From NCBI GenBank assembly GCA_934168205.1, contig CAKPMX010000001.1:4799-68798 (forward strand): DNA of 64,000 nt, given 5' to 3'. Made by a program: the position numbers and the translations under genes. The notes beneath the pieces were generated by a model. The model had not been told where the DNA came from, did no database searches, and saw nothing but the letters and a program-made list of their open reading frames with translations. How positions within the stretch are numbered: the stretch's first letter is position 1; the number at the start of each line of letters is the position of its first letter. This document shows, one piece after another, positions 445-61,427 of this stretch. Origin of the DNA: an uncultured Bacilli bacterium. Its GTDB lineage: Bacteria; Bacillota_I; Bacilli_A; RF39; UBA660.

Positions 445-2031
445 TTATCTTTTACTTTCTATATATTCCTCATATGGAACACATCTATCTATAATAGAAC
501 CATCATCTAATATCTCAATAACACGATTAGTAACAGTACTATTAAGTTCATAATCACGAGAAGTAAATAATACTTCACCTTGGAAATTAATTAATCCTTT
601 ATTTAAAGATGTAATACTTTCCAAATCTAAATGGTTAGTAGGTTCATCTAATATTAAGAAGTTAGGTCCTTCTAACATTAATTTAGATAACATACAACGC
701 ATCTTTTCTCCACCTGATAAAACAGATACCTTTTTAAATACATCATCACCAGAGAATAACATTCTACCTAAGAATCCACGAAGAACTGTTTCATCCTTAA
801 TATCATAATATTGCCCTATCCATTCCATAATGTTCTTATCAACATTGAAATACTCTGTATTATCTTGAGGCAAATAAGCATAATTAATTGTCTTACCAAA
901 TTCTATAGTACCAGCATCATATTTTTCTTTACCAGTTAAAATATTAAATAAAGTTGTTTTAACCATGTCATTATTCGCAATAAAAGTAATTTTATCTCCT
1001 TTAAGAACTGTAAATGATACTTTATTTAAAATCTTTTTACCATCAACCATTTTAGTAAGATTTTCTACTTTTAATATTTCTTTACCAGCCGGTTTTTCAA
1101 TTTTAAAATCTATATAAGGATACTTTCTAGAAGAAGGTACAATTTCATCAAGTTGAATCTTATCTAACATTTTCTTTCTAGAAGTCGCTTGTTTTGACTT
1201 AGAAGCATTGGCTGAGAATCTCGCAATAAATGCTTGTAACTCTTTAATTTTTTCTTCCTTTTTCTTATTAGATTCACGCATTTGTTTTTGTAACAATTCA
1301 GATGACTCATACCAGAAATCATAGTTACCAACATATAGCTTAATCTTACCATAATCAATATCAGCAATATGTGTACAAACCTTATTTAAGAAATGTCTAT
1401 CATGAGATACAAGAATAACTGTATTATTAAAGTTTATTAAAAACTCCTCTAACCAGCGAATAGCATCTAAATCCAAACTGTTTGTAGGTTCATCCAAAAG
1501 TAAAATATCTGGATTACCAAATAAAGCTTGAGCAAGTAAAACTTTTACACGGTCCTTAACAGGAAGCTCACTCATTAAAACATAATGATATTTTTCATCT
1601 ATTCCTAAATTATTTAAAAGTGTACAAGCATCAGACTCAGCATTCCATCCATCTAAATCCATAAATTCAGCTTCTAAATTAGCTAATTTCATACCATCTT
1701 CTTCACTGAACTCAGTTTGCTCATACATCTTATTCTTTTCTTCCATGATTTTATAAAGTTTATCATTACCCATGATTACAACATCAATAACTCTATTATT
1801 ATCATATTGATAATGATCCTGTCTTAAAATAGAAAGTCTCTCATTTTTAGATATAACTATCTCTCCTGTTGTAGTTTCTATCTCACCTGACAATAACTTT
1901 AAAAATGTAGATTTACCAGATCCATTCGCACCAATTAATCCATAACAATTACCATCAGTAAATTTAATATTAACATCTTCAAACAAAGTTCTCTTTCCAA
2001 ACTTTAAACTAACATTATTAACTTGAATCAT
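445..2031 (-). CDS. ABC-F family ATPase (tandem ABC ATP-binding domains, no transmembrane domain)
   Basis: 528 aa. Two Walker A motifs (GANGSGKST and a second P-loop), LSGGE signature sequences and an inter-domain linker give the ABC-F architecture. Confidence 0.85.
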   Translation of the reverse strand: MIQVNNVSLKFGKRTLFEDVNIKFTDGNCYGLIGANGSGKSTFLKLLSGEIETTTGEIVISKNERLSILRQDHYQYDNNRVIDVVIMGNDKLYKIMEEKNKMYEQTEFSEEDGMKLANLEAEFMDLDGWNAESDACTLLNNLGIDEKYHYVLMSELPVKDRVKVLLAQALFGNPDILLLDEPTNSLDLDAIRWLEEFLINFNNTVILVSHDRHFLNKVCTHIADIDYGKIKLYVGNYDFWYESSELLQKQMRESNKKKEEKIKELQAFIARFSANASKSKQATSRKKMLDKIQLDEIVPSSRKYPYIDFKIEKPAGKEILKVENLTKMVDGKKILNKVSFTVLKGDKITFIANNDMVKTTLFNILTGKEKYDAGTIEFGKTINYAYLPQDNTEYFNVDKNIMEWIGQYYDIKDETVLRGFLGRMLFSGDDVFKKVSVLSGGEKMRCMLSKLMLEGPNFLILDEPTNHLDLESITSLNKGLINFQGEVLFTSRDYELNSTVTNRVIEILDDGSIIDRCVPYEEYIESKR

Positions 2032-2125
2032 TATCTCACCTCAAACAAAGTATTTAAATATACACAAAAACTGTGTACTTGCATTTACCATTATACTATT
2101 TAATAAACATATAAGTCAAAGTAAA

Positions 2126-2743
2126 TTATTTTCCCTTATAAAAATGTGACACAGTCTTTGCAAATTCATATAAAATAATATCACTTTTATTAATTGCAAA
2201 ACCTTTACCTAAAGCTTTACCGCCAATAGTAAGAGCTGCAACTATTGCCGCTACAAATAATCCTGTAAATAATAAGCTCCAATTAAACTGATTAGCCAAA
2301 ATTGTCGCAATAGCTGTAGCGGCTGTACCAGAAATAATTCCACAAACATCACCTACAACATCACAACAAAAGTTAGATACTTTAGAAGCATTCTTCTTAA
2401 ATTTAACAGCAATATCAGCACCTGGTACTTTACGAGAATTCATCGAATGAAAAACTGTCTCATCACTACTAGTAACACTAACACCAATGATATCAAATAA
2501 TATACCTATACCTATAAATAACAAAGTAATAAGTATACCAAAAAACAATGATAAATTAGGTATTGTAACTTGTGAAACGTATGATAAACCAAATGACAAT
2601 GCAAATGCTATTAAAACTATTTTAAGTATCCATTTATACTCTGTTTTCTTTTTACTAATTTTTTCTCTTCTTTTAGTCTCAATGACTAATTCCTTAAATT
2701 CATCTCTTTCTAATTTTTTCTTATCTTTCATATAATACCTCAC
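2126..2743 (-). CDS. oapA: Small 4-TM membrane protein with a DxxxD motif (DVVGD); candidate OLE-associated protein A
   Basis: 205 aa with four predicted TM helices and a DVVGD motif inside TM3. It lies immediately downstream, on the same strand, of a roughly 600-nt ORF-free structured-looking region. Confidence 0.45.
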   Translation of the reverse strand: MRYYMKDKKKLERDEFKELVIETKRREKISKKKTEYKWILKIVLIAFALSFGLSYVSQVTIPNLSLFFGILITLLFIGIGILFDIIGVSVTSSDETVFHSMNSRKVPGADIAVKFKKNASKVSNFCCDVVGDVCGIISGTAATAIATILANQFNWSLLFTGLFVAAIVAALTIGGKALGKGFAINKSDIILYEFAKTVSHFYKGK

Positions 2744-2789
2744 TAATTTATTTATGAAAAAAATAGTATCCTAAAATACTATTTTAAAT

Positions 2790-3400
2790 TACTTAAACTA
2801 ATGGCTATTAACATAGTAAACTTTGAATCTTAGGTCAAGTAGGATTTCCCTCATGTCTATAAATCCGTTACCAGATTTATGGTTCCCCTTTAAAGATATG
2901 AGTATGACGTCACCGTTCATACGACTTGATTACCACTTAGTATCCACTGCAATCCTATGCTAACGGCACTCTAGGAGATTTCCCCACCAATAACACTTTA
3001 TTATTAGTTCTCTTTTGCAACAGCAATTTCATAAAGCAATACTTATTATATTTGGCCAAACATTAATAAGCAAGTTCTTTAATCCCAAGACCATCACTCA
3101 AGACAAGCTACGCTGTACATAACTTTCGCCACAATACAGGTTTTATCCCATTTCGTAATGAGTCCATCAGTTAACACGTATAGGCTCACCACAATAATAG
3201 GTCTCCACAAATACTGGGTCGTTTGTCGTATGCCATTACGAGCGCCCAACATTTTTCATCTCCAGCATCCACCCTAAACTGGGCGTATAAAGCAAACACC
3301 AGAGGTTTCACAGATATGCTCTTATAACGGTTGTTTAATCCCGTCTTCCTAATAAAGTGATTGACTAGAATAATGTGCCATCAATCAGTACATATTATAT
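2790..3400 (-). ncRNA. ole: Candidate OLE (ornate large extremophilic) RNA, about 600 nt
   Basis: 690 nt with no ORF and about 40% GC, against roughly 20% GC in other intergenic regions of this window. The size matches OLE at about 610 nt. It sits directly upstream, on the same strand, of an OapA-like 4-TM DxxxD protein. No tmRNA, RNase P or SRP signature motifs were found. Confidence 0.5.
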
Positions 3401-3433
3401 CATATGTAACTAAAAATGTCAAATTTACACTTT

Positions 3434-4117
3434 TTAACTATTTCTAATTTTCTCAACAAAACTATTAATTTTTGCAGGCCAAGAACTTCCTTCAGCATAT
3501 CTTGGTGCTATTTTTTCAACAGTATCTAAACCTTGACTATAATAGTTTTTATATAAGTTATTAACAAAACCAGTAATACCCTCTTCTAAACTATTAAATC
3601 TTTTATAACTACCACCATTACATCCCGGTGCACCTTTTTGTCCACCAACGTTGTAGCAACTTCTAGCTAAGTTTGAACATCTACTTCCACAACCAGTTTC
3701 ATGTAACATTATAGCTGTTGCGACATAAGGATCGATTCCAAGTTCAATACATTTAGTCGCAATAAAGTAACCTTGTCCAGCTAATATATCTGTACCTAAA
3801 TTTCTATCTAACTTCGCTGCCAACTCTTCTATTGTTAAACCATCAAACACTTCAATTCTAGGTGGAACAATAACAGATGCTGGTGCAGCTTCCATCTCAA
3901 TAGCTGTAATAGAAGAATTATCCTCGCGTAAATCTGATTCGCTATTATTAACTAGCGCATTTTCAGAAGCTGTTATATTATTTATATTTACTTCATTATA
4001 TGAATATGATAAATCATCATTAATCTCATAAGCTTTTTCTTGTAGTTTTATTCCCATTGAAACCATTAAAACAGATATTATTAGTAAGACAACACTAATA
4101 ATTTTTGTTTTTTTCAT
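3434..4117 (-). CDS. Secreted peptidoglycan hydrolase with a mannosyl-glycoprotein endo-beta-N-acetylglucosaminidase-like domain
   Basis: N-terminal signal anchor followed by a C-terminal glucosaminidase-like domain (GYFIATKCIELGIDPYVATAIMLHETG). Confidence 0.55.
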   Translation of the reverse strand: MKKTKIISVVLLIISVLMVSMGIKLQEKAYEINDDLSYSYNEVNINNITASENALVNNSESDLREDNSSITAIEMEAAPASVIVPPRIEVFDGLTIEELAAKLDRNLGTDILAGQGYFIATKCIELGIDPYVATAIMLHETGCGSRCSNLARSCYNVGGQKGAPGCNGGSYKRFNSLEEGITGFVNNLYKNYYSQGLDTVEKIAPRYAEGSSWPAKINSFVEKIRNS

Positions 4118-4194
4118 TGAAATTCACCTCATCATTGAATAATAATCAATGTATCCATTTTACACTATTATACATAAAAAGTCAAATTTGAGCC

Positions 4195-5769
4195 CTAAGC
4201 ATGAATCCTAAAAGTACTAGGTGCATACTTATAAACAAGTTTTAAAGAAACTATAATATAAGCTCCTGTAAGTACAATTCCTAAGATAGAAAAATACAAT
4301 GAAGACATTACTAAATTAGATAAAATATAAGTCAAAACAAGTGTAATAAATGATACAAATGTATAAGAAATACCCTTTACCTGTAAGTCCTTATTATATG
4401 GTTGTAACAAATAATAAATAACTAAATAATGTACTGAGAAAAACACACTAAGTACAATAATAAATAATGGTATCATAATATAATTAATAACTAAACTGCC
4501 ATCAGTAGTAATACCAAGTAAAACTATAGAACCTATCGCAATAACTATAGCCGGCAACAAATTAATCTTAATTAACATCGTAAGTCTTTTCTTAAATAGT
4601 CCAAGTATAACATCAGGCTCTCTATAAAAATTATATCTAAGCATAGCATGATCACAATTATAAAACATTGCTTGAGTAACAACAGAACCTCTATTAATAA
4701 GATACATAATTAGTACAAACCAACCTAATCTATTAAGTAAAAAATCATGTATATTATTATAAATATCATTATTATAAAAAGATAAAACACCAAGTACAAT
4801 AATTATAATTAAGATAATCAAACTAAAATTCTTAGCACTTCTCATTAATATTTCTTTATGTCTTTCAAAAAATATTGTATTAAATAAATCATAGCCTTTC
4901 TTATCCTTTAATTTACGACCATCAATATTCTTATCTTTATCCTTAATTCTAATCATTTCTTGTCTAGCATACAAGTCACCAGCATCACTATTAATAGCAG
5001 CCTTAAAAGTATTTATTTTCTTATAAATAAGTTTATAATCTTTAATCCTCATTAAATATATATAACAAAATACACTAGCAAATAAAAATATAAATAAAGT
5101 CCAATAAATTACCATATCTGGTACAAAAATATTAAAGAAAGGTAAACTTCCTATCGCAAAAAACACTCCAATAACAACAAGTGTATGTCTATAATCAGTA
5201 GTAAATGTAATACCATGCTTCTTATAATAATAAACACTAAATGCATCTCCTACAATTCTAGCTGTTGTACTAAATAAAATAAGACATAAAGCTTCAAGAA
5301 CAGAATAATTTAAAAAACTAGATAACGTTAAAAATCCTAAAGAGTTCAATATGAATGATAAAAACAAAGTCCATATAAATGAAGCTTTCATAAACTTTTT
5401 AGCATCCATATTAAATAATATTATAGAAAAGTATTTTTTTGTACTAGTACTTAAAATACTAGGATTAATAAACATACCAATAAAAGTAAAAACAAAATAA
5501 ATAAATATAAAAGTTCTAGTAATATCATTTTTATTAATAAAACTACTAATATAATATATTACAAAGAAATAAAGTAATCTAAAAAATATAGCCCTACATG
5601 CCGACATTAAAATACTAAATGTTCTAGCAAACTTCTTAACTCTATCATTTTTATAAGCATTATCACCTATTATATTTTTTAATATCGGTAACTTTTTAAA
5701 TTGATAAATATTAGCATTTATAGCGTATGTTAAATCTATCTTTAAAGCCATTTTCAAAGTATTAAGCAT
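4195..5769 (-). CDS. Polytopic ABC transporter permease
   Basis: 524 aa with many TM helices. It overlaps the upstream ABC ATPase gene by 8 nt. Confidence 0.55.
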   Translation of the reverse strand: MLNTLKMALKIDLTYAINANIYQFKKLPILKNIIGDNAYKNDRVKKFARTFSILMSACRAIFFRLLYFFVIYYISSFINKNDITRTFIFIYFVFTFIGMFINPSILSTSTKKYFSIILFNMDAKKFMKASFIWTLFLSFILNSLGFLTLSSFLNYSVLEALCLILFSTTARIVGDAFSVYYYKKHGITFTTDYRHTLVVIGVFFAIGSLPFFNIFVPDMVIYWTLFIFLFASVFCYIYLMRIKDYKLIYKKINTFKAAINSDAGDLYARQEMIRIKDKDKNIDGRKLKDKKGYDLFNTIFFERHKEILMRSAKNFSLIILIIIIVLGVLSFYNNDIYNNIHDFLLNRLGWFVLIMYLINRGSVVTQAMFYNCDHAMLRYNFYREPDVILGLFKKRLTMLIKINLLPAIVIAIGSIVLLGITTDGSLVINYIMIPLFIIVLSVFFSVHYLVIYYLLQPYNKDLQVKGISYTFVSFITLVLTYILSNLVMSSLYFSILGIVLTGAYIIVSLKLVYKYAPSTFRIHA

Positions 5770-26050: not shown

Positions 26051-26066
26051 ACTAAACCGCCTTTTT
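26043..26066. terminator. Bidirectional rho-independent terminator (GCGGT/ACCGC stem with flanking T and A runs)
   Basis: Hairpin read directly, between convergent genes. Confidence 0.55.
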
Positions 26067-26068
26067 GT

Positions 26069-26191
26069 TTAACTTAATAATGCTATCAAAATACCAGCAA
26101 TAAAGAAACTACTTGAAATAATCATTACAACTGTACCAATTACTTCAGCATATCCAAACTCATTTAATTTATTTTTATTTTCATCTTTCAT
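26069..26191 (-). CDS. Possible 40-aa single-TM peptide (MKDENKNKLNEFGYAEVIGTVVMIISSSFFIAGILIALLS)
   Basis: It falls below the ORF-track length cutoff. A GAGG-like RBS precedes it, and the ORF ends at the bidirectional terminator. Confidence 0.3.
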   Translation of the reverse strand: MKDENKNKLNEFGYAEVIGTVVMIISSSFFIAGILIALLS

Positions 26192-26512
26192 ACTGCAACC
26201 TCACTATCATCATTTACTATAATAAGTATATCATATTGCCAAAAAATATCAAACTACTTCTTTATGAATTCTTTCACCAGTTTCAATCAGTTAACATTAT
26301 AGTAAATTTATATATTACACAGAATATTATATTATTATGTCTTAACATACTATTATTATCATATCTTAAAACTTCAGCAATAACAGAATACTTTTTACAA
26401 TCTAAATCTTTACTATCAATATCATTTATAATATAAGCTATATACACAATTTCTATAAGAGCACCTAATTTCATATTTTTGTTCCAAAAAAAGAAAAGAG
26501 AAACTCTTTTCC

Positions 26513-31452: not shown

Positions 31453-32253
31453 ATGAACAGCAACAATAAAAAAATGTGTATACCAAATAATTGTTTTATA
31501 CCAGGTCCTACTGGACCAACTGGTCCTAAAGGAAATGGCATAAACATTTTAGGAAGTTATGATACATATGAAGAATTAATAAAGAACCATCCCACCGGTT
31601 CGAAAGATGATGCTTATATAATTAACGGTGATCTATTCATCTGGTCAGACAAAGAAAAGAACTGGATTAACACCGGTAAAGTTCAAGGTCCCAAGGGAGA
31701 TCCGGGTCCTAAAGGAGACCAAGGTGAAAAAGGAGATCCCGGTCCTAATACCGTTAGAGCAGCATACCTAGTAACATTTAATGGTACCGAATCAAAAACT
31801 GGTATAACTATAGATTCAAACGGAACATTACCAATTGAAAGAAAAGAATTAGATTTAACAAATCTTGTTAATCTAAATCAAACTGAAAACACAATCAGTT
31901 TCAATGTCATAGGTTGCTACCGAATAAGTATAATTGTATCTGCTTATGTAAAAGGTATAGAAACGCCATATAACAAAACAAAAGACTTTGTCACTCTCGG
32001 ATTAAGAGAAAAAGATACTGACAATATCTACATTGGAACAAGTTCTTGGTATGAAACAGAAACAGCTAAACAAAATATAATGGAAGGAATGCTTGCTATA
32101 ACAGATACAAAAAAAGAATTTGAATTAGTAAACATAGGCAGTAAAAGCATCTGCTTAATAACACCAGACATAGAAAATATAAAATCAAAGTCATACTTCA
32201 CAAATTCACTTGTAACAGTATTCATAGAATACTTAGGAAAACAAGTAATATAA
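31453..32253 (+). CDS. Collagen-like triple-helix repeat protein (GPTGPTGPKG ... GPKGDPGPKGDQGEKGDPGP) with a roughly 170-aa C-terminal globular domain; BclA-like
   Basis: G-X-Y repeats read directly. It resembles the exosporium BclA family, whose C-terminal domain is C1q/TNF-like. Confidence 0.7.
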   Translation: MNSNNKKMCIPNNCFIPGPTGPTGPKGNGINILGSYDTYEELIKNHPTGSKDDAYIINGDLFIWSDKEKNWINTGKVQGPKGDPGPKGDQGEKGDPGPNTVRAAYLVTFNGTESKTGITIDSNGTLPIERKELDLTNLVNLNQTENTISFNVIGCYRISIIVSAYVKGIETPYNKTKDFVTLGLREKDTDNIYIGTSSWYETETAKQNIMEGMLAITDTKKEFELVNIGSKSICLITPDIENIKSKSYFTNSLVTVFIEYLGKQVI

Positions 32254-32258
32254 ATTAA

Positions 32259-32285
32259 AAAGATAGCCAAAGCTATCTTTTATCT
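32259..32285 (+). terminator. Rho-independent terminator (aagatagc-caaa-gctatctt followed by a T run)
   Basis: Hairpin read directly, downstream of the collagen-like gene. Confidence 0.6.
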
Positions 32286-32546
32286 TGAATAAGTTTTATA
32301 TCATTAATATCATCATCAAAAGTATATTTACCACCAGTTTCTACTTGTCTGAAATAAATACTTGCTAAATAATTTTTATCAAAAGGAACATTATTAAATG
32401 TTGCATTTTCAAATGTATCATTGTTATACCAAGACCATATGTAATACCAAAAGAAATATTCATAATTAATTACCTATAAATCTATAATAAATTATGATAA
32501 TAATAACAATATGAAAATGACTATAACCTAAATACAAGTAAAAAAA

Positions 32547-43006: not shown

Positions 43007-43299
43007 AATTACACTTCCCTATAAGTACCAACTGGCTAAATATATTATCATAAAACTCAACAAAAGTCTAATAAAAAGACCAGAGTTCATCACTCTAGTC
43101 AATTAAATAATTTACACTCATAAAGATTATTAATCCGCTTCAATTACATACCTTATCTACGGACAGTTTTTTATTTTTTAATAAGTAATGATTTATACTA
43201 TTAACACAAAAAGTCTCTTATAATTAATAAAACGACCCTTTTATGCTACAATCAATATAGAATAAAAAACCCGAAAGTAGCGTAAGTCGTTTTATGAAT

Positions 43300-44530
43300 A
43301 AATTATATAATACACAAAAAACAATCACAAGCAAAATTGAACTTTTTTTTGCAAGAAAATATTTCCTGTTTACATAGACCTCAAGAAAAAATGATTCCTT
43401 CTATTATTTTTGGAATGATTATGAGCGAATCTGTTGTTACCCAAGATATTGCCAGAATTTTAAAAGATGATTTTTCTTTAGTTCAATTAGATTCCGTTTC
43501 TAGAAGAATTAGAAGACTCCTTAATAACAGTAGATTTGATGGCTACCTATTTTATAAAGAAACTATTACTCATGTTATTAACAATTATAAAATTAAACAT
43601 TCTTCTAACACAGTTCATCTAACAATTGATCACATGTATTCTAAGGAAAATTATACTGTACTTTTTGTCTCAATAAGAGTTGGCAAACAAGGAATTCCTA
43701 TTTATTTTGAATGTTTTAAAGGCATTAAAAATCCAGAAGCATTTTATGATAGAACCGTCATAAAAGCAATAGATTATGTTTTTGATTTATTTAAAAACAA
43801 AAATCTAAATATTATTTTTCTGGCTGATCGCTGGTTTTCCAAAAAAGTATTTGAACACATTGATAAGTTAGGAGCAACTTATTGTTTTAGACTTAAAAGC
43901 AATTTAAAAATTTCTGTTTATGATAAAAACGAAGGACATTATATAAGAAAATATACTGGTGATTTACTTTCTTGGAAACACCATTCTATTTACTATAATG
44001 ATGTCAATATGTATGAAGAATTAAATTATAAAACCAATATCGTGATTAGTAGAAAATGTTGTACTGACGAACCTTGGATCATTGCGACAAATGGTGAAGC
44101 AAAAGAATCTATTAGACACTATTCACACAGATTTGGCTCAATAGAAAGTGTTTTTAAAAATCAGAAATCAAATAGATTTTATCTAGAAGATATTTGCACT
44201 GCATCCTTAACTTCTTTCATTAATTTATACTCTTTAGTTTGTTTTTCAACGTTATTTTTAACTATTGTTGGAACAGATTATTCCAAAAATTCTAGATGTT
44301 ACAAAAATGTAAAAATTACAGCACATAAAACATATAAAAATAAAGGTAAAATAAGAGTTATGTCATTATTTAATACAGGACTAACATTCTTCAAATTAGC
44401 ATTTAATTCTTATAAATATATAAGGATTCCATTTAGATTAATTTTATACGACATATAATTTCATCAATTCATAATAAGCTTAAATTTCATTTATGAATGA
44501 AATCCTTTTTGTGTGTTCAAAATTTCAAAC
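43300..44530 (+). mobile_element. IS4-family insertion sequence; boundaries are approximate
   Basis: It carries a single DDE transposase gene. Short imperfect terminal matches appear (TACACAAAAA on the left, and TTTTTGTGTGTTC on the right, which gives GAACACACAAAAA when reverse-complemented). Confidence 0.5.
43337..44458 (+). CDS. IS4-family DDE transposase
   Basis: DDE residues (FLADRWF and others) and the C-terminal Y-x2-R-x3-E-x6-K motif (HYSHRFGSIESVFKNQK). Confidence 0.7.
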   Translation: MNFFLQENISCLHRPQEKMIPSIIFGMIMSESVVTQDIARILKDDFSLVQLDSVSRRIRRLLNNSRFDGYLFYKETITHVINNYKIKHSSNTVHLTIDHMYSKENYTVLFVSIRVGKQGIPIYFECFKGIKNPEAFYDRTVIKAIDYVFDLFKNKNLNIIFLADRWFSKKVFEHIDKLGATYCFRLKSNLKISVYDKNEGHYIRKYTGDLLSWKHHSIYYNDVNMYEELNYKTNIVISRKCCTDEPWIIATNGEAKESIRHYSHRFGSIESVFKNQKSNRFYLEDICTASLTSFINLYSLVCFSTLFLTIVGTDYSKNSRCYKNVKITAHKTYKNKGKIRVMSLFNTGLTFFKLAFNSYKYIRIPFRLILYDI

Positions 44531-53780: not shown

Positions 53781-53857
53781 TGGGGCGTCGTAAGGGAATC
53801 GAACCCTTGCATACTAGTGCCACAAACTAGCGTGTTAACCACTTCACCAACGGCGCC
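53781..53857 (-). tRNA. tRNA-His (GUG) with the 5' G-1 and an encoded CCA
   Basis: Manual fold: anticodon arm CUAGU-UUGUGGC-ACUAG, T-arm AAGGG-UUCGAUU-CCCUU, the extra 5' G pairing with discriminator C, and a 3' CCA. One C·A mismatch falls at acceptor position 4:69. Confidence 0.85.
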
Positions 53858-58165: not shown

Positions 58166-58350
58166 AAAAATCCTCTCTCTTTACTTATTAATAATAGCAC
58201 ATTATCAAACACTTTAAAAGAAACTATCCGAGAAAATACCTTATACTTGACAATAAATAAGAATAAAAATTAAAAAGAATAAATAATTTAGGTATCCATT
58301 ATGTCAATTACTAATCATATTAAATATAATATATTGAAAGGAGAATATTT

Positions 58351-58512
58351 ATGATGTACGGATATCCAATGTATAATTATAATGAAACTAATGGAACTTC
58401 TTCTTGGTTTTGGATTATAATTATTGTATTAATTATCTTCTTTATACTATTCTGGAGTAATGGCAATAATAATTGTTATTCTTCTGGTCACAACAATTCA
58501 AAATGCTGCTAA
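58351..58512 (+). CDS. Possible 53-aa hydrophobic peptide (YjcZ-like small sporulation-type protein)
   Basis: An AAAGGAGAA RBS lies 5 nt upstream. A single TM core (WFWIIIIVLIIFFILFW) is followed by a Cys-rich tail. The ORF ends at a bidirectional terminator that overlaps the folD stop. Confidence 0.3.
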   Translation: MMYGYPMYNYNETNGTSSWFWIIIIVLIIFFILFWSNGNNNCYSSGHNNSKCC

Positions 58513-58535
58513 AAAAAGAGTGTCAACAAACACTC

Positions 58536-59438: not shown

Positions 59439-61190
59439 CTACTCGACAGTAACACTTTTAGCTAAGTTCTTAGGCTTATCAATATCACAACCTCTTAGTT
59501 TAGCAACTTCATATGCAATTAACTGTAAACAAGCTACAACTAACATAGGTTGTAAAAACTCATCTATCTTAGGTACACAAATTAAATAATCACAATCAGT
59601 CTCTTCTTTGTTACTAATAATTATTGTAACAGCACCTCTTGCTTTAACTTCACAAACATTAGAAATAGTTTTATCTCTAATATCTTCATCTGTAATAATC
59701 GCAAAAACCGGTGTACCTTTATCTATCAAAGAAATAGTTCCATGTTTTAATTCTCCAGCTTGATAAGCTTCACTATGTATATAAGAAACTTCTTTTAATT
59801 TTAAACTACCTTCTAACGATATAGCGTAATCTATTTTTCTACCTATGAAGAAAATATCCTCACGTTTATATATCTTTTTAGCTATTTTTAGATACATTTC
59901 TCTTCTATCAATTACTTCTTTTAAAAGTCTAGGTAATAATTTTAAATCATTTACTATATCCTTTTTACCAGCAACTCTAGCACTTAATAAAGCCATAATC
60001 GCAACTTGTAAAATATATGCTTTAGTAGTCGCAACAGCTATTTCTGGACCAGCTTCTATAAATATTTGTTGATCAGATTCACGAGCTATAGTTGAACCTT
60101 TTACATTAACTATTGCTAGAGTCAAAGCTCCATGTTCTTTTGCTTTTCTCATAGCGGCAATAGTATCAGCAGTTTCTCCAGACTGAGAAATAACTATAAC
60201 AATTGTCTTTCTATCATATAAAACTTTCTTATAACGATATTCACTCGCAACTTCACAAGTAACTCTAATATTTGAATGTTCTTCTAATAAAGTCTTACCT
60301 ATCATTCCAGCATACATTGCTGAGCCACAGGCTACTATATGAATTTCTTCATAACTACTTAAATCAGGAATTTTATCAAAATCATCTAAAAATGGTTTAA
60401 TAGTCTTTTCAAGTACAATTGGCTCTTCCATTATTTCTTTTAACATATAATGTTCATAACCATTTTTTTCTCTATCTTCTGCTGTTAAATCTGTAACTAA
60501 AATTTCTTTCTTAATTTTTTTGCCATTTTTAGTAACTTTAATTCCATCAAAATCTAAAACAGCTATTTCATTTTCCTCAAGTAAAGAATATTTATTTGTA
60601 TATTTAATAATTGCACTTATATCAGAAGCTATAAAAAATTCTTTATTACCATAGCCAATAATCAATGGTAAATCTTTTCTAACTGCAAATAATTTATCTT
60701 GATCTTCAAAAATAATTGCTAAAGCATAAGAACCTTTAACGTCTTTAATAGCTTTTTCTATTGCTAAAACAGGATCACCATCATAATAATAATTAATTAA
60801 AGCTGTCATTACTTCTGAATCAGTATCACTATTAAACTTAACTCCTTCTTTAAGTAATCTTTCTTTAAGTTCGCTAAAGTTTTCTATAATACCATTATGA
60901 ACTAATGTAACTTTACCAGATTTATGAGGATGTGCATTAGCCTCATTTGGCTCTCCATGAGTAGCCCATCTAGTATGAGCAATACCCATATTAGCTTTAA
61001 TAACATCCATATTATTAATTTTTTCTTCTAAACAAGATATTCTTCCTAAACCACGAATAACTTGTACTTGACTATCATTTCTTAGAGCTATACCAGCTGA
61101 ATCATACCCTCTATACTCTAAGTTTTTAAGTCCTTCCAATAAAATATTTTTCGGTTCTTTTGAACCTATATAACCTACAATTCCACACAT
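59439..61190 (-). CDS. glmS: Glutamine--fructose-6-phosphate aminotransferase
   Basis: MCGIVGY N-terminal nucleophile, two SIS domains and a C-terminal SVTVE. Confidence 0.95.
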   Translation of the reverse strand: MCGIVGYIGSKEPKNILLEGLKNLEYRGYDSAGIALRNDSQVQVIRGLGRISCLEEKINNMDVIKANMGIAHTRWATHGEPNEANAHPHKSGKVTLVHNGIIENFSELKERLLKEGVKFNSDTDSEVMTALINYYYDGDPVLAIEKAIKDVKGSYALAIIFEDQDKLFAVRKDLPLIIGYGNKEFFIASDISAIIKYTNKYSLLEENEIAVLDFDGIKVTKNGKKIKKEILVTDLTAEDREKNGYEHYMLKEIMEEPIVLEKTIKPFLDDFDKIPDLSSYEEIHIVACGSAMYAGMIGKTLLEEHSNIRVTCEVASEYRYKKVLYDRKTIVIVISQSGETADTIAAMRKAKEHGALTLAIVNVKGSTIARESDQQIFIEAGPEIAVATTKAYILQVAIMALLSARVAGKKDIVNDLKLLPRLLKEVIDRREMYLKIAKKIYKREDIFFIGRKIDYAISLEGSLKLKEVSYIHSEAYQAGELKHGTISLIDKGTPVFAIITDEDIRDKTISNVCEVKARGAVTIIISNKEETDCDYLICVPKIDEFLQPMLVVACLQLIAYEVAKLRGCDIDKPKNLAKSVTVE

Positions 61191-61204: not shown

Positions 61205-61360
61205 CCTTAAAAAATATAGTTACGATATATCATTTGTTGTAATCTTGATTTTACTCTTTAAAATATATCTAACGAACAACTTATATCCGTAGTAGAACCC
61301 GCCGAATTTTCGATAAACTACTAACCTCGTCATCCTAAAAGGATCAGGCGCTAAAATGAA
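61205..61360 (-). ncRNA. glmS ribozyme (GlcN6P-responsive self-cleaving riboswitch) in the glmS 5' leader
   Basis: The minus strand reads UUAGCGCCUGAUCC...GACGAGGUUAGUAGUUUAUCGAAAAUUCGGCGGGUUCUACUACGG. This matches the ribozyme core blocks AGCGCC, GACGAGG-stem-UUAUCGAAUUUUCGGCGG-stem. Confidence 0.75.
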
Positions 61361-61427
61361 TCAATACAACCTTTCTACATTCATTCTAATAATATTATAC
61401 TAAAAAAAAAGAAGTTTGTAACCTCTT

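What the first reader, a model, noticed from the sequence alone, without database searches (positions are those of the whole stretch)
2126..3433. Candidate OLE RNA with an adjacent OapA-like membrane protein
A 690-nt stretch (2744..3433) has no ORF of 60 aa or more on either strand. Its GC content is about 40%, whereas other intergenic DNA in this window is roughly 20% GC, so it looks structured. Immediately downstream on the same (minus) strand is a 205-aa four-TM protein with a DxxxD motif (DVVGD) inside a helix. Established knowledge is that OLE RNA, about 600 nt, occurs in anaerobic, often spore-forming Firmicutes directly upstream of oapA, a small 4-TM DxxxD protein. Size, strand, position and phylogenetic setting all fit. 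OLE ribonucleoprotein biology (membrane localisation, stress tolerance) is still poorly understood, so a clean locus is useful.
Basis: partly seen in the sequence, partly recalled or inferred. Interest (0 to 1): 0.65.

Follow-up and report, generated by a model that had tools for sequence, protein, structure and literature searches.

The report
OLE RNA gene with its oapA partner

Summary
Confirmed and ordinary. Rfam RF01071 (OLE) matches window 2785..3397 on the minus strand over the whole model (387 bits, E 3e-110). No other RNA family matches there.

The ORF just downstream on the same strand is best read as 201 aa, 2731..2126. It has the published marks of OapA:
- four helices in membrane-spanning positions
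- an invariant DVVGD (DxxxD) motif
- a conserved basic loop
- a CNNM/CorB-like fold without CBS or CorC domains
- an OLE gene directly upstream in 77 of 80 related loci

Across 21 relatives the RNA keeps its helices, and 71 of 166 predicted pairs show compensatory changes.

New detail for this locus:
- ole has its own perfect sigma-70 promoter (3422..3394), conserved in relatives.
- A weak, conserved AT-rich terminator hairpin (2785..2757) lies between ole and oapA.
- The relatives belong to the reduced-genome gut order RF39, yet this RNA keeps P7 and P8, so it is the full-length form.
- It lacks one small hairpin of the Rfam model.
- No oapB or oapC was found in the nine small ORFs of the 64-kb window that were scanned.

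The biochemical function of OLE remains unknown in the literature. Novelty: already known. Interest: low.

The parts
3394..3422 (-). Promoter of ole: TTGACA (3422..3417), 17-nt spacer, TG-extended TATAAT (3399..3394). The predicted transcription start is about 3389..3385.
   Evidence: Matches 12 of 12 consensus positions with TG before the -10 box and was read directly. TTGACA and TATAAT (or GTATAAT) sit at the same distance from the conserved UGGCAC in 19 of 21 related loci. The Rfam hit begins inside the -10 box, so the RNA probably starts a few bases after 3394 (inference).
2785..3397 (-). OLE RNA gene (Rfam hit). The structured core, from the P1 5' strand to the P1 3' strand, is about 3380..2802.
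   Evidence: RF01071 at 387.1 bits, E 3.3e-110, model 1-616 of 616, not truncated. RNAalifold on 21 relatives gives 166 pairs, 71 with compensatory double changes. It recovers P1, P2, P3 and the hairpins P4, P5, P6.1, P7, P8, P9, P10 and P12-P15. Stem names were assigned here by matching the helices to the prose descriptions in PMC12265935. The loops described there as dimerisation contacts are intact: P5.1 GCCCA, P6.1 AAUGGCAU and P9 UUGGCCAA.
3146..3200 (-). P7 hairpin, with an 11-nt longer loop than the Rfam consensus.
   Evidence: Aligned to Rfam model 198-252. Pairs in alignment columns 201-262 are kept, with covariation.
3110..3138 (-). P8 hairpin with GAAA loop.
   Evidence: Aligned to Rfam model 260-288. 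Pairs in alignment columns 270-301 are kept, with covariation. The presence of P7 and P8 marks this as the full-length type, not 'variant 2' of PMC11332333.
2903..2923 (-). P13 hairpin GUAUG-A-ACG-GUGA-CGU-CAUAC: a GNRA tetraloop plus a one-base bulge, which are the published determinants of OapB binding.
   Evidence: Sequence read. Pairs in columns 495-516 are kept, with 7 and 5 compensatory changes. The determinants are taken from PMC7936274.
2757..2785 (-). AT-rich hairpin (AAAAUAGUAUU-UUAG-GAUACUAUUUU) running into a run of seven U: a weak intrinsic terminator between ole and oapA.
   Evidence: MFE -8 kcal/mol for the whole 56-nt stretch folded, z -2.1. The consensus scan missed it because the stem has a single G-C pair. 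A hairpin plus T-run at the same place, with different stem sequences, was seen by eye in most of the 21 relatives.
2126..2731 (-). oapA: a 201-aa membrane protein with Shine-Dalgarno GAGG at 2741..2738, DVVGD at residues 124-128 and a basic loop RKVPGADIAVKFKKNASK at residues 100-117.
   Evidence: An OLE gene lies upstream on the same strand in 77 of 80 homologous loci.

Best explanation
This is an ole-oapA locus.

Transcription. A strong promoter of its own (3422..3394) drives transcription of an OLE RNA of roughly 600-630 nt on the minus strand. Most transcripts probably end at a weak AT-rich hairpin and U-run (2785..2757). The fraction that reads through carries oapA (2731..2126), whose start codon follows 25 bases after the U-run with a good ribosome-binding site.

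Assembly, as established for other species. From work on Halalkalibacterium halodurans and two Clostridium species, not shown here: OapA is a four-helix membrane protein with a CNNM-like fold. It dimerises, binds OLE RNA and holds it at the cell membrane. The RNA itself dimerises through the P4, P5.1/P6.1 and P9 loops. The particle helps cells cope with cold, short-chain alcohols, excess Mg2+ and poor carbon sources. Its biochemical activity is still unknown.

Shown here: the identity of the RNA, conservation of its helices by compensatory change, the promoter and hairpin and their conservation, the protein's features, and its linkage to ole.

Inferred here: the transcript ends, read-through as the source of oapA expression, and every step of function.
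For: - RNA identity: RF01071 full-length hit at 387 bits, E 3e-110.
- Linkage: 20 of 20 homologous loci carry a full-length RF01071 hit on the same strand upstream of the protein. A profile search finds it in 77 of 80.
- Structure kept: 71 of 166 consensus pairs have compensatory double changes across 21 sequences.
- Promoter: 12 of 12 consensus match, conserved in 19 of 21 relatives.
- Terminator: hairpin plus U-run, seen by eye in most of the 21 relatives.
- Protein: D124 and D128 invariant, and the basic loop residues R100 K101 K112 K113 K117 invariant.
- Protein model: helices at 32-59, 62-88, 115-149 and 153-181.
- Fold: top Foldseek hits are MtCorB 7M1T/7M1U and the CorC transmembrane domain 7CFG/7CFF. 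All 13 family members match PF01595 below threshold, best E 9e-6. This matches what PMC11332333 reports for bona fide OapA.
- Contact loops: the dimerisation loops described in PMC12265935 are intact.
Against: Nothing found contradicts the identification. The limits are these:
- The structure model is of moderate confidence (pLDDT 67), and the Foldseek E-values are weak (0.011-1.2).
- The terminator is weak, and the consensus scan reports no terminator.
- There are no expression data.
- The small hairpin at Rfam model positions 424-435 is absent.
- By simple inspection, the G expected to close the OapC k-turn against C85 is missing in this copy.
Confidence: 0.96

Rival explanations
1. The RNA is a true OLE, but in this reduced genome it works with OapA alone as a minimal particle. 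OapC, and perhaps OapB, would have been lost.
For: - PMC11332333 states that RF39 and TANB77 organisms largely lack OapB and OapC.
- The relatives include Mycoplasma sp. CAG:877, whose GTDB genus CAG-877 is placed in RF39, family CAG-611 (PMC8035907).
- No S1/SBB-like or L7Ae-like protein was found in the nine small ORFs (64-174 aa) scanned.
- The nucleotide that should pair with C85 in the OapC k-turn is A rather than G here, while 46 of 77 relatives keep an RA-G-R-W motif.
- Relatives show piecemeal loss of P7 and P13.
Against: - Only 64 kb of the genome is visible. ybxF and ybzG homologues normally lie elsewhere.
- The P13 GNRA tetraloop and bulge, which form the OapB site, are intact.
- The k-turn reading rests on a crude motif inspection.
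Confidence: 0.35
2. The 201-aa protein is a truncated CNNM/MpfA-type Mg2+ transporter that merely sits next to the RNA, not an RNA partner.
For: It gives sub-threshold PF01595 matches, and its best fold matches are CorB and CorC.
Against: - It has no CBS or CorC_HlyC domains.
- It has four helices in membrane-spanning positions in the model, where PMC11332333 describes three per monomer for CorB.
- It has an invariant DxxxD motif, which CNNM domains lack according to PMC11332333.
- It is strictly linked to ole in 77 of 80 loci.
Confidence: 0.03
3. The GC-rich gap is another large structured RNA (ROOL, GOLLD, RNase P, tmRNA) or a decayed protein-coding gene.
For: None beyond its length and the lack of ORFs.
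Against: Only RF01071 matches at the gathering threshold. The substitutions between relatives keep base pairs, not reading frames.
Confidence: 0.01

Closest known systems
Full-length OLE RNA (Rfam RF01071) with OapA, as studied in Halalkalibacterium halodurans and imaged by cryo-EM for Clostridium acetobutylicum and C. botulinum
   Same: - The match covers the entire model.
- P1-P10 and P12-P15 are present, and the conserved dimerisation loops of P4, P5.1, P6.1 and P9 are kept.
- P13 has a GUGA tetraloop with a bulge.
- oapA lies directly downstream on the same strand and has DxxxD, a basic loop and a CNNM-like fold.
   Different: - The host is a low-GC (28%) uncultured gut member of the Bacilli, not an extremophile.
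- The neighbours are a glucosaminidase-like gene and an ABC-F ATPase, not the isoprenoid and DNA-repair genes that I recall flanking ole in Bacillus (from memory, not checked).
- ole has its own consensus promoter and a weak terminator before oapA.
- The small hairpin at model positions 424-435 is missing.
- The P7 loop is 11 nt longer.
- The k-turn closing pair appears to be lost.
OLE 'variant 2' of RF39 organisms (Fernando and Breaker 2024, PMC11332333)
   Same: It probably comes from the same host order (RF39) and the same kind of reduced gut genome.
   Different: Variant 2 lacks P7 and P8 entirely. This RNA has both, as do most relatives sampled: P8 is present in 21 of 21 and P7 at full length in 18 of 21.
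MpfA/CorB/CNNM Mg2+ transporters (PF01595)
   Same: The transmembrane fold of the protein.
   Different: The protein has no cytoplasmic CBS or CorC domains. It has DxxxD, four helices in membrane-spanning positions, and is linked to an RNA gene.

Membership tests
OLE RNA (Rfam RF01071) | Covariance-model score above the curated gathering score over the full model | tested here: met
   387.1 bits against a gathering score of 50, model 1-616 of 616, E 3.3e-110, minus strand.
OLE RNA (Rfam RF01071) | Helices maintained by compensatory substitutions among relatives | tested here: met
   166 consensus pairs, 71 with changes on both sides, in 21 sequences. The covariation term is -21.6 kcal/mol.
OLE RNA (Rfam RF01071) | Conserved loops that form the RNA dimer contacts (A-rich P4, P5.1 GCCCA with P6.1 UGGC, palindromic P9 GGCC) | tested here: met
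   All are present and nearly invariant in the alignment. Their role is taken from PMC12265935.
OLE RNA (Rfam RF01071) | Full-length type: P7 and P8 present (absent in variant 2, shortened in variant 1) | tested here: met
   Rfam model positions 198-252 and 260-288 are aligned and paired. Stem names were assigned here from the prose in PMC12265935.
OLE RNA (Rfam RF01071) | Abundant stable transcript of about 600 nt | not testable with these tools
   Only a consensus promoter and a terminator-like hairpin could be shown.
OLE RNA (Rfam RF01071) | k-turn flanking P5 that binds OapC (C85-G144 pair next to a 3-nt bulge, sheared G-A pairs) | tested here: inconclusive
   The bulged strand AUC-UGU-GAAAC is invariant. 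The non-bulged strand reads AUGAAAAAUGUU, with no G placed to pair with C85. 46 of 77 relatives keep RA-G-R-W. This was a motif inspection only.
OLE RNA (Rfam RF01071) | P13 GNRA tetraloop plus single-base bulge (OapB site) | tested here: met
   GUAUG-A-ACG-GUGA-CGU-CAUAC. The determinants are taken from PMC7936274.
OapA | Gene directly downstream of ole on the same strand | tested here: met
   53 nt lie between the end of the Rfam hit and the ATG. The same arrangement holds in 20 of 20 and 77 of 80 homologous loci. The other three loci have only 139-757 nt of sequence upstream of the gene.
OapA | Four transmembrane helices | tested here: met
   Model helices at 32-59, 62-88, 115-149 and 153-181. 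Three pass a hydropathy cut-off. The DxxxD helix does not. Model pLDDT is 67.
OapA | Conserved DxxxD motif | tested here: met
   DVVGD at 124-128. D124 and D128 are invariant in 13 homologues of 67-100% identity.
OapA | Conserved cluster of basic residues on a loop | tested here: met
   R100 K101 K112 K113 K117 are invariant and K110 nearly so. There are six K/R in residues 96-120. That the loop faces the cytoplasm is inferred.
OapA | CNNM-like fold, scoring below MpfA on PF01595 and closest to CorB 7M1U | tested here: met
   PF01595 is matched by 13 of 13 members below the cut-off, best E 9.4e-6 and E 0.34 for the window protein. Foldseek ranks 1-5 are 7M1T, 7M1U, 7CFG and 7CFF.
OapA | Sequence homology to the experimentally studied H. 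halodurans OapA, and binding of OLE RNA | not testable with these tools
   The reference sequence could not be fetched. No PDB chain matches by sequence.
MpfA/CNNM Mg2+ transporter | CNNM domain above the Pfam threshold followed by CBS pair and CorC_HlyC domains | tested here: not met
   No Pfam family at E 0.01 or better. PF01595 scores 11 bits against a cut-off of 28.4. The protein ends at residue 201.

The most novel reading that the evidence does not exclude
In one branch of the reduced-genome gut order RF39, a full-length OLE RNA is kept as a self-contained unit (own consensus promoter, ole, leaky terminator, oapA). It sits in a fixed neighbourhood with a cell-wall glucosaminidase-like gene and an ABC-F ATPase. 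The OapC k-turn, and in some relatives P7 and P13, are being lost. If so, this clade would be a natural series showing which parts of the OLE particle are dispensable. It might also point to a link between OLE and cell-envelope turnover.
Probability: 0.2. Interest if true: 0.4.

Novelty: already known. Interest (0 to 1): 0.15.

Why it matters
It matters little as a discovery. OLE RNA and OapA have been known since 2006, and a 2024 survey (PMC11332333) already counted 2,822 OLE genes across Bacillota, including RF39 gut organisms.

The locus has some practical use. It is a compact and cleanly bounded ole-oapA unit in a small genome. Its relatives show graded loss of substructures (P7, P13, possibly the k-turn). 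That could help define the minimal functional OLE particle, whose biochemical role is still an open question.

Tried and rejected
- Protein family libraries. Pfam and NCBIfam at E 0.01 or better gave nothing for the 201/205-aa protein. Neither library returned an OapA model, so this is not evidence against the call.
- PDB by sequence. A profile search found only a chance SemiSWEET match at E 0.81.
- Terminator scan. The consensus scan found no terminator in 1900..4300. The AT-rich hairpin was found by eye and by folding.
- oapB and oapC. Nine small ORFs (64-174 aa) and two larger ones were scanned against Pfam for an S1/SBB-like or L7Ae-like protein. The hits were DUF1292, YbjQ, an HTH domain, HSP20 and an aldehyde dehydrogenase fragment, and nothing relevant. 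Most longer ORFs were not scanned.
- ORFs between ole and oapA. The ORFs inserted in L012/L015 and L075 were read as translations to see whether they might be a partner protein. They do not resemble each other and were not followed further.
- Other RNA families (ROOL, GOLLD, RNase P, tmRNA) gave no hit at the gathering threshold.
- A separate oapA promoter. The only candidate, 2760..2732, overlaps the start codon, so it was rejected in favour of read-through.

Full report
**Observation**

The stretch 2744..3433 has no ORF of 60 aa or more on either strand. The longest ORFs there are 40-52 aa. It is the largest gap between long ORFs in the window.

The Rfam-matched part is 37.5% GC. All other intergenic DNA is 23.6% GC and coding DNA is 28.5% (profile).

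**The RNA**

A scan of the whole window against Rfam 15 at gathering thresholds gives three hits. One is RF01071 (OLE) at 2785..3397 on the minus strand: 387.1 bits against a gathering score of 50, E 3.3e-110, covering model positions 1-616 of 616 without truncation. The other two hits are a glmS ribozyme and a tRNA, both far away. No other family matches the region.

I assigned stem names by matching the Rfam helices to the prose descriptions in PMC12265935.
- The alignment shows the hairpins P4, P5/P5.1, P6/P6.1, P7, P8, the long P9, P10 and the P12-P15 domain.
- The loops described in PMC12265935 as the contacts of the RNA dimer are intact: the A-rich P4 loop, GCCCA in P5.1, AAUGGCAU in P6.1 and the palindromic UUGGCCAA in P9.
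- There are two visible departures from the Rfam consensus. The four-pair hairpin at model positions 424-435 is absent, and the P7 loop is 11 nt longer.

**Relatives**

A profile of the downstream protein was used to fetch 80 loci from species-representative genomes.
- Rfam finds a full-length OLE (348-408 bits) on the same strand upstream of the protein in 20 of the 20 loci tested.
- An nhmmer profile finds it in 77 of 80. The other three loci have only 139-757 nt of sequence upstream of the gene.
- An alignment of 21 of these RNAs folded with RNAalifold gives 166 consensus pairs, 71 with compensatory changes on both sides.
- That fold also recovers de novo the long-range helices P1, P2 and P3, which are not in the Rfam structure line.

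The RNA is therefore under selection for its structure.

**Transcription signals**

A perfect TTGACA-17-TATAAT promoter with a TG extension lies at 3422..3394. The same boxes sit at the same distance from the conserved UGGCAC in 19 of 21 relatives. The Rfam hit starts inside the -10 box, so the RNA probably begins near 3389..3385 (inference).

After the P1 3' strand comes an AT-rich hairpin followed by seven U, at 2785..2757. The 56-nt stretch folds at -8 kcal/mol with z -2.1. By eye, most of the 21 relatives have a hairpin plus T-run at this place with different stem sequences.

The consensus terminator scan misses it because the stem has one G-C pair. I read it as a weak terminator. Read-through would then supply oapA, whose ATG lies 25 nt after the U-run. 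This is inference.

**The protein**

The GTG at 2743 lies within the ribosome-binding site: GAGG at 2741..2738, six bases before ATG 2731. All homologues found are about 201 aa. I therefore set the gene at 2731..2126.

No Pfam or NCBIfam model reaches threshold. The protein has these features:
- DVVGD at residues 124-128, with both Asp invariant.
- A basic loop, RKVPGADIAVKFKKNASK, with five invariant K/R.
- Predicted helices at 32-59, 62-88, 115-149 and 153-181 (pLDDT 67).
- Sub-threshold CNNM (PF01595) matches in all 13 family members scanned.
- Best structural matches, in ranks 1-5, to the archaeal CNNM protein MtCorB (7M1T, 7M1U) and the CorC transmembrane domain (7CFG, 7CFF).

PMC11332333 describes exactly this profile for H. 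halodurans OapA: CNNM-like, scoring next below MpfA on PF01595, top structural match 7M1U, four helices and a distinctive DxxxD. Together with the linkage to ole, I accept the protein as OapA. The one feature I could not test is a direct alignment with the studied protein.

**Host and variant type**

The relatives are uncultured Bacilli, 'Tenericutes' and Mycoplasma sp. CAG:877. GTDB genus CAG-877 is placed in order RF39, family CAG-611 (PMC8035907). The window is 28% GC.

PMC11332333 says RF39 organisms commonly carry 'variant 2' OLE RNAs without P7 and P8, and largely lack OapB and OapC. This RNA has both P7 and P8, so it is of the full-length type. The same holds for most relatives sampled:
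- P7 is truncated only in L031, L062 and L075.
- P13 is shortened only in L055, L062 and L075.

The P13 GUGA tetraloop and single-base bulge, which are the determinants of OapB binding (PMC7936274), are present here.

For the OapC k-turn (PMC9723947), the bulged strand is invariant. The G that should pair with C85 is not evident in this copy, whereas 46 of 77 relatives keep a suitable motif. This was a crude inspection and I rate it inconclusive.

No OapB-like or OapC-like protein was found in the nine small ORFs (64-174 aa) scanned. Only 64 kb is visible.

**Neighbourhood**

Upstream lies a 227-aa protein with a glucosaminidase domain (PF01832). Downstream lies an ABC-F ATPase with its own promoter-like site at 2119..2090. 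Within the 3-kb flanks fetched, tblastn finds the first in 61 of 80 related loci and the second in 58 of 80. This may reflect nothing more than common descent.

**How it works**

What follows is taken from the literature, not shown here. OapA binds OLE RNA and holds it at the membrane. The RNA dimerises. The particle supports tolerance of cold, alcohols, excess Mg2+ and growth on poor carbon sources. Recent structural work suggests that P3 may cross the bilayer (PMC12265935, PMC11332333, PMC10898510). The chemical activity of the particle is unknown. Nothing in this locus adds to or conflicts with that picture.

**Verdict**

The element is a member of a family that has been surveyed genome-wide. 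The novelty class is 'already known' and the interest is low.

Noticed in passing
window 61214..61363 (-) and 59439..61190 (-): A glmS ribozyme (RF00234, 69.5 bits) lies directly upstream of a 583-aa ORF that begins MCGIVGYIG, which looks like GlmS. This is the usual arrangement.
   Followed up: no
window 53784..53856 (-): A single tRNA gene (RF00005, 58.7 bits) sits in a 438-nt gap between ORFs.
   Followed up: no
window 445..4117 and loci L001-L080: The gene order glucosaminidase-like protein, ole, oapA, ABC-F ATPase is kept in most relatives. tblastn finds the first protein in 61 of 80 loci and the ABC-F protein in 58 of 80.
   Followed up: partly
L012 2540..2995, L015 (same place), L075 2418..3023: Two different ORFs that do not resemble each other (151 aa, and 201 aa rich in Cys) are inserted between ole and oapA in a few relatives. 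The RNA and protein genes can therefore be separated by 450-635 nt.
   Followed up: partly
L031, L062, L075 (alignment A2 columns 224-244); L055, L062, L075 (columns 500-506): Within this clade the P7 hairpin is truncated in three genomes. The P13 GNRA hairpin, which is the OapB site, is shortened in three.
   Followed up: partly
window 3259..3245 (-), positions 139-153 of the Rfam hit: The strand that should close the OapC k-turn reads AUGAAAAAUGUU, with no G to pair with the invariant C85. Most relatives have AAGAU or AGGAU here.
   Followed up: partly
whole window: TGA ends only 3 of 55 long ORFs (TAA 37, TAG 15). The ORF map is nearly gap-free under code 11, so there is no sign of TGA recoding.
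   Followed up: no
window 31453..32253 (+): A 266-aa ORF starts with a collagen-like GPTGPTGPKG stretch.
   Followed up: no
window 26051..26512, 58166..58535, 43007..43336, 32254..32546: These intergenic gaps of 293-462 nt have no Rfam hit at the gathering threshold and an ordinary low GC of 21-26%.
   Followed up: no
window 2810..2838 (-): A promoter-like match, TTGACC-17-TATGTT (9 of 12), lies inside the conserved CUACUUGACCUAAG segment of the OLE 3' domain. It is probably a coincidence of RNA conservation.
   Followed up: no
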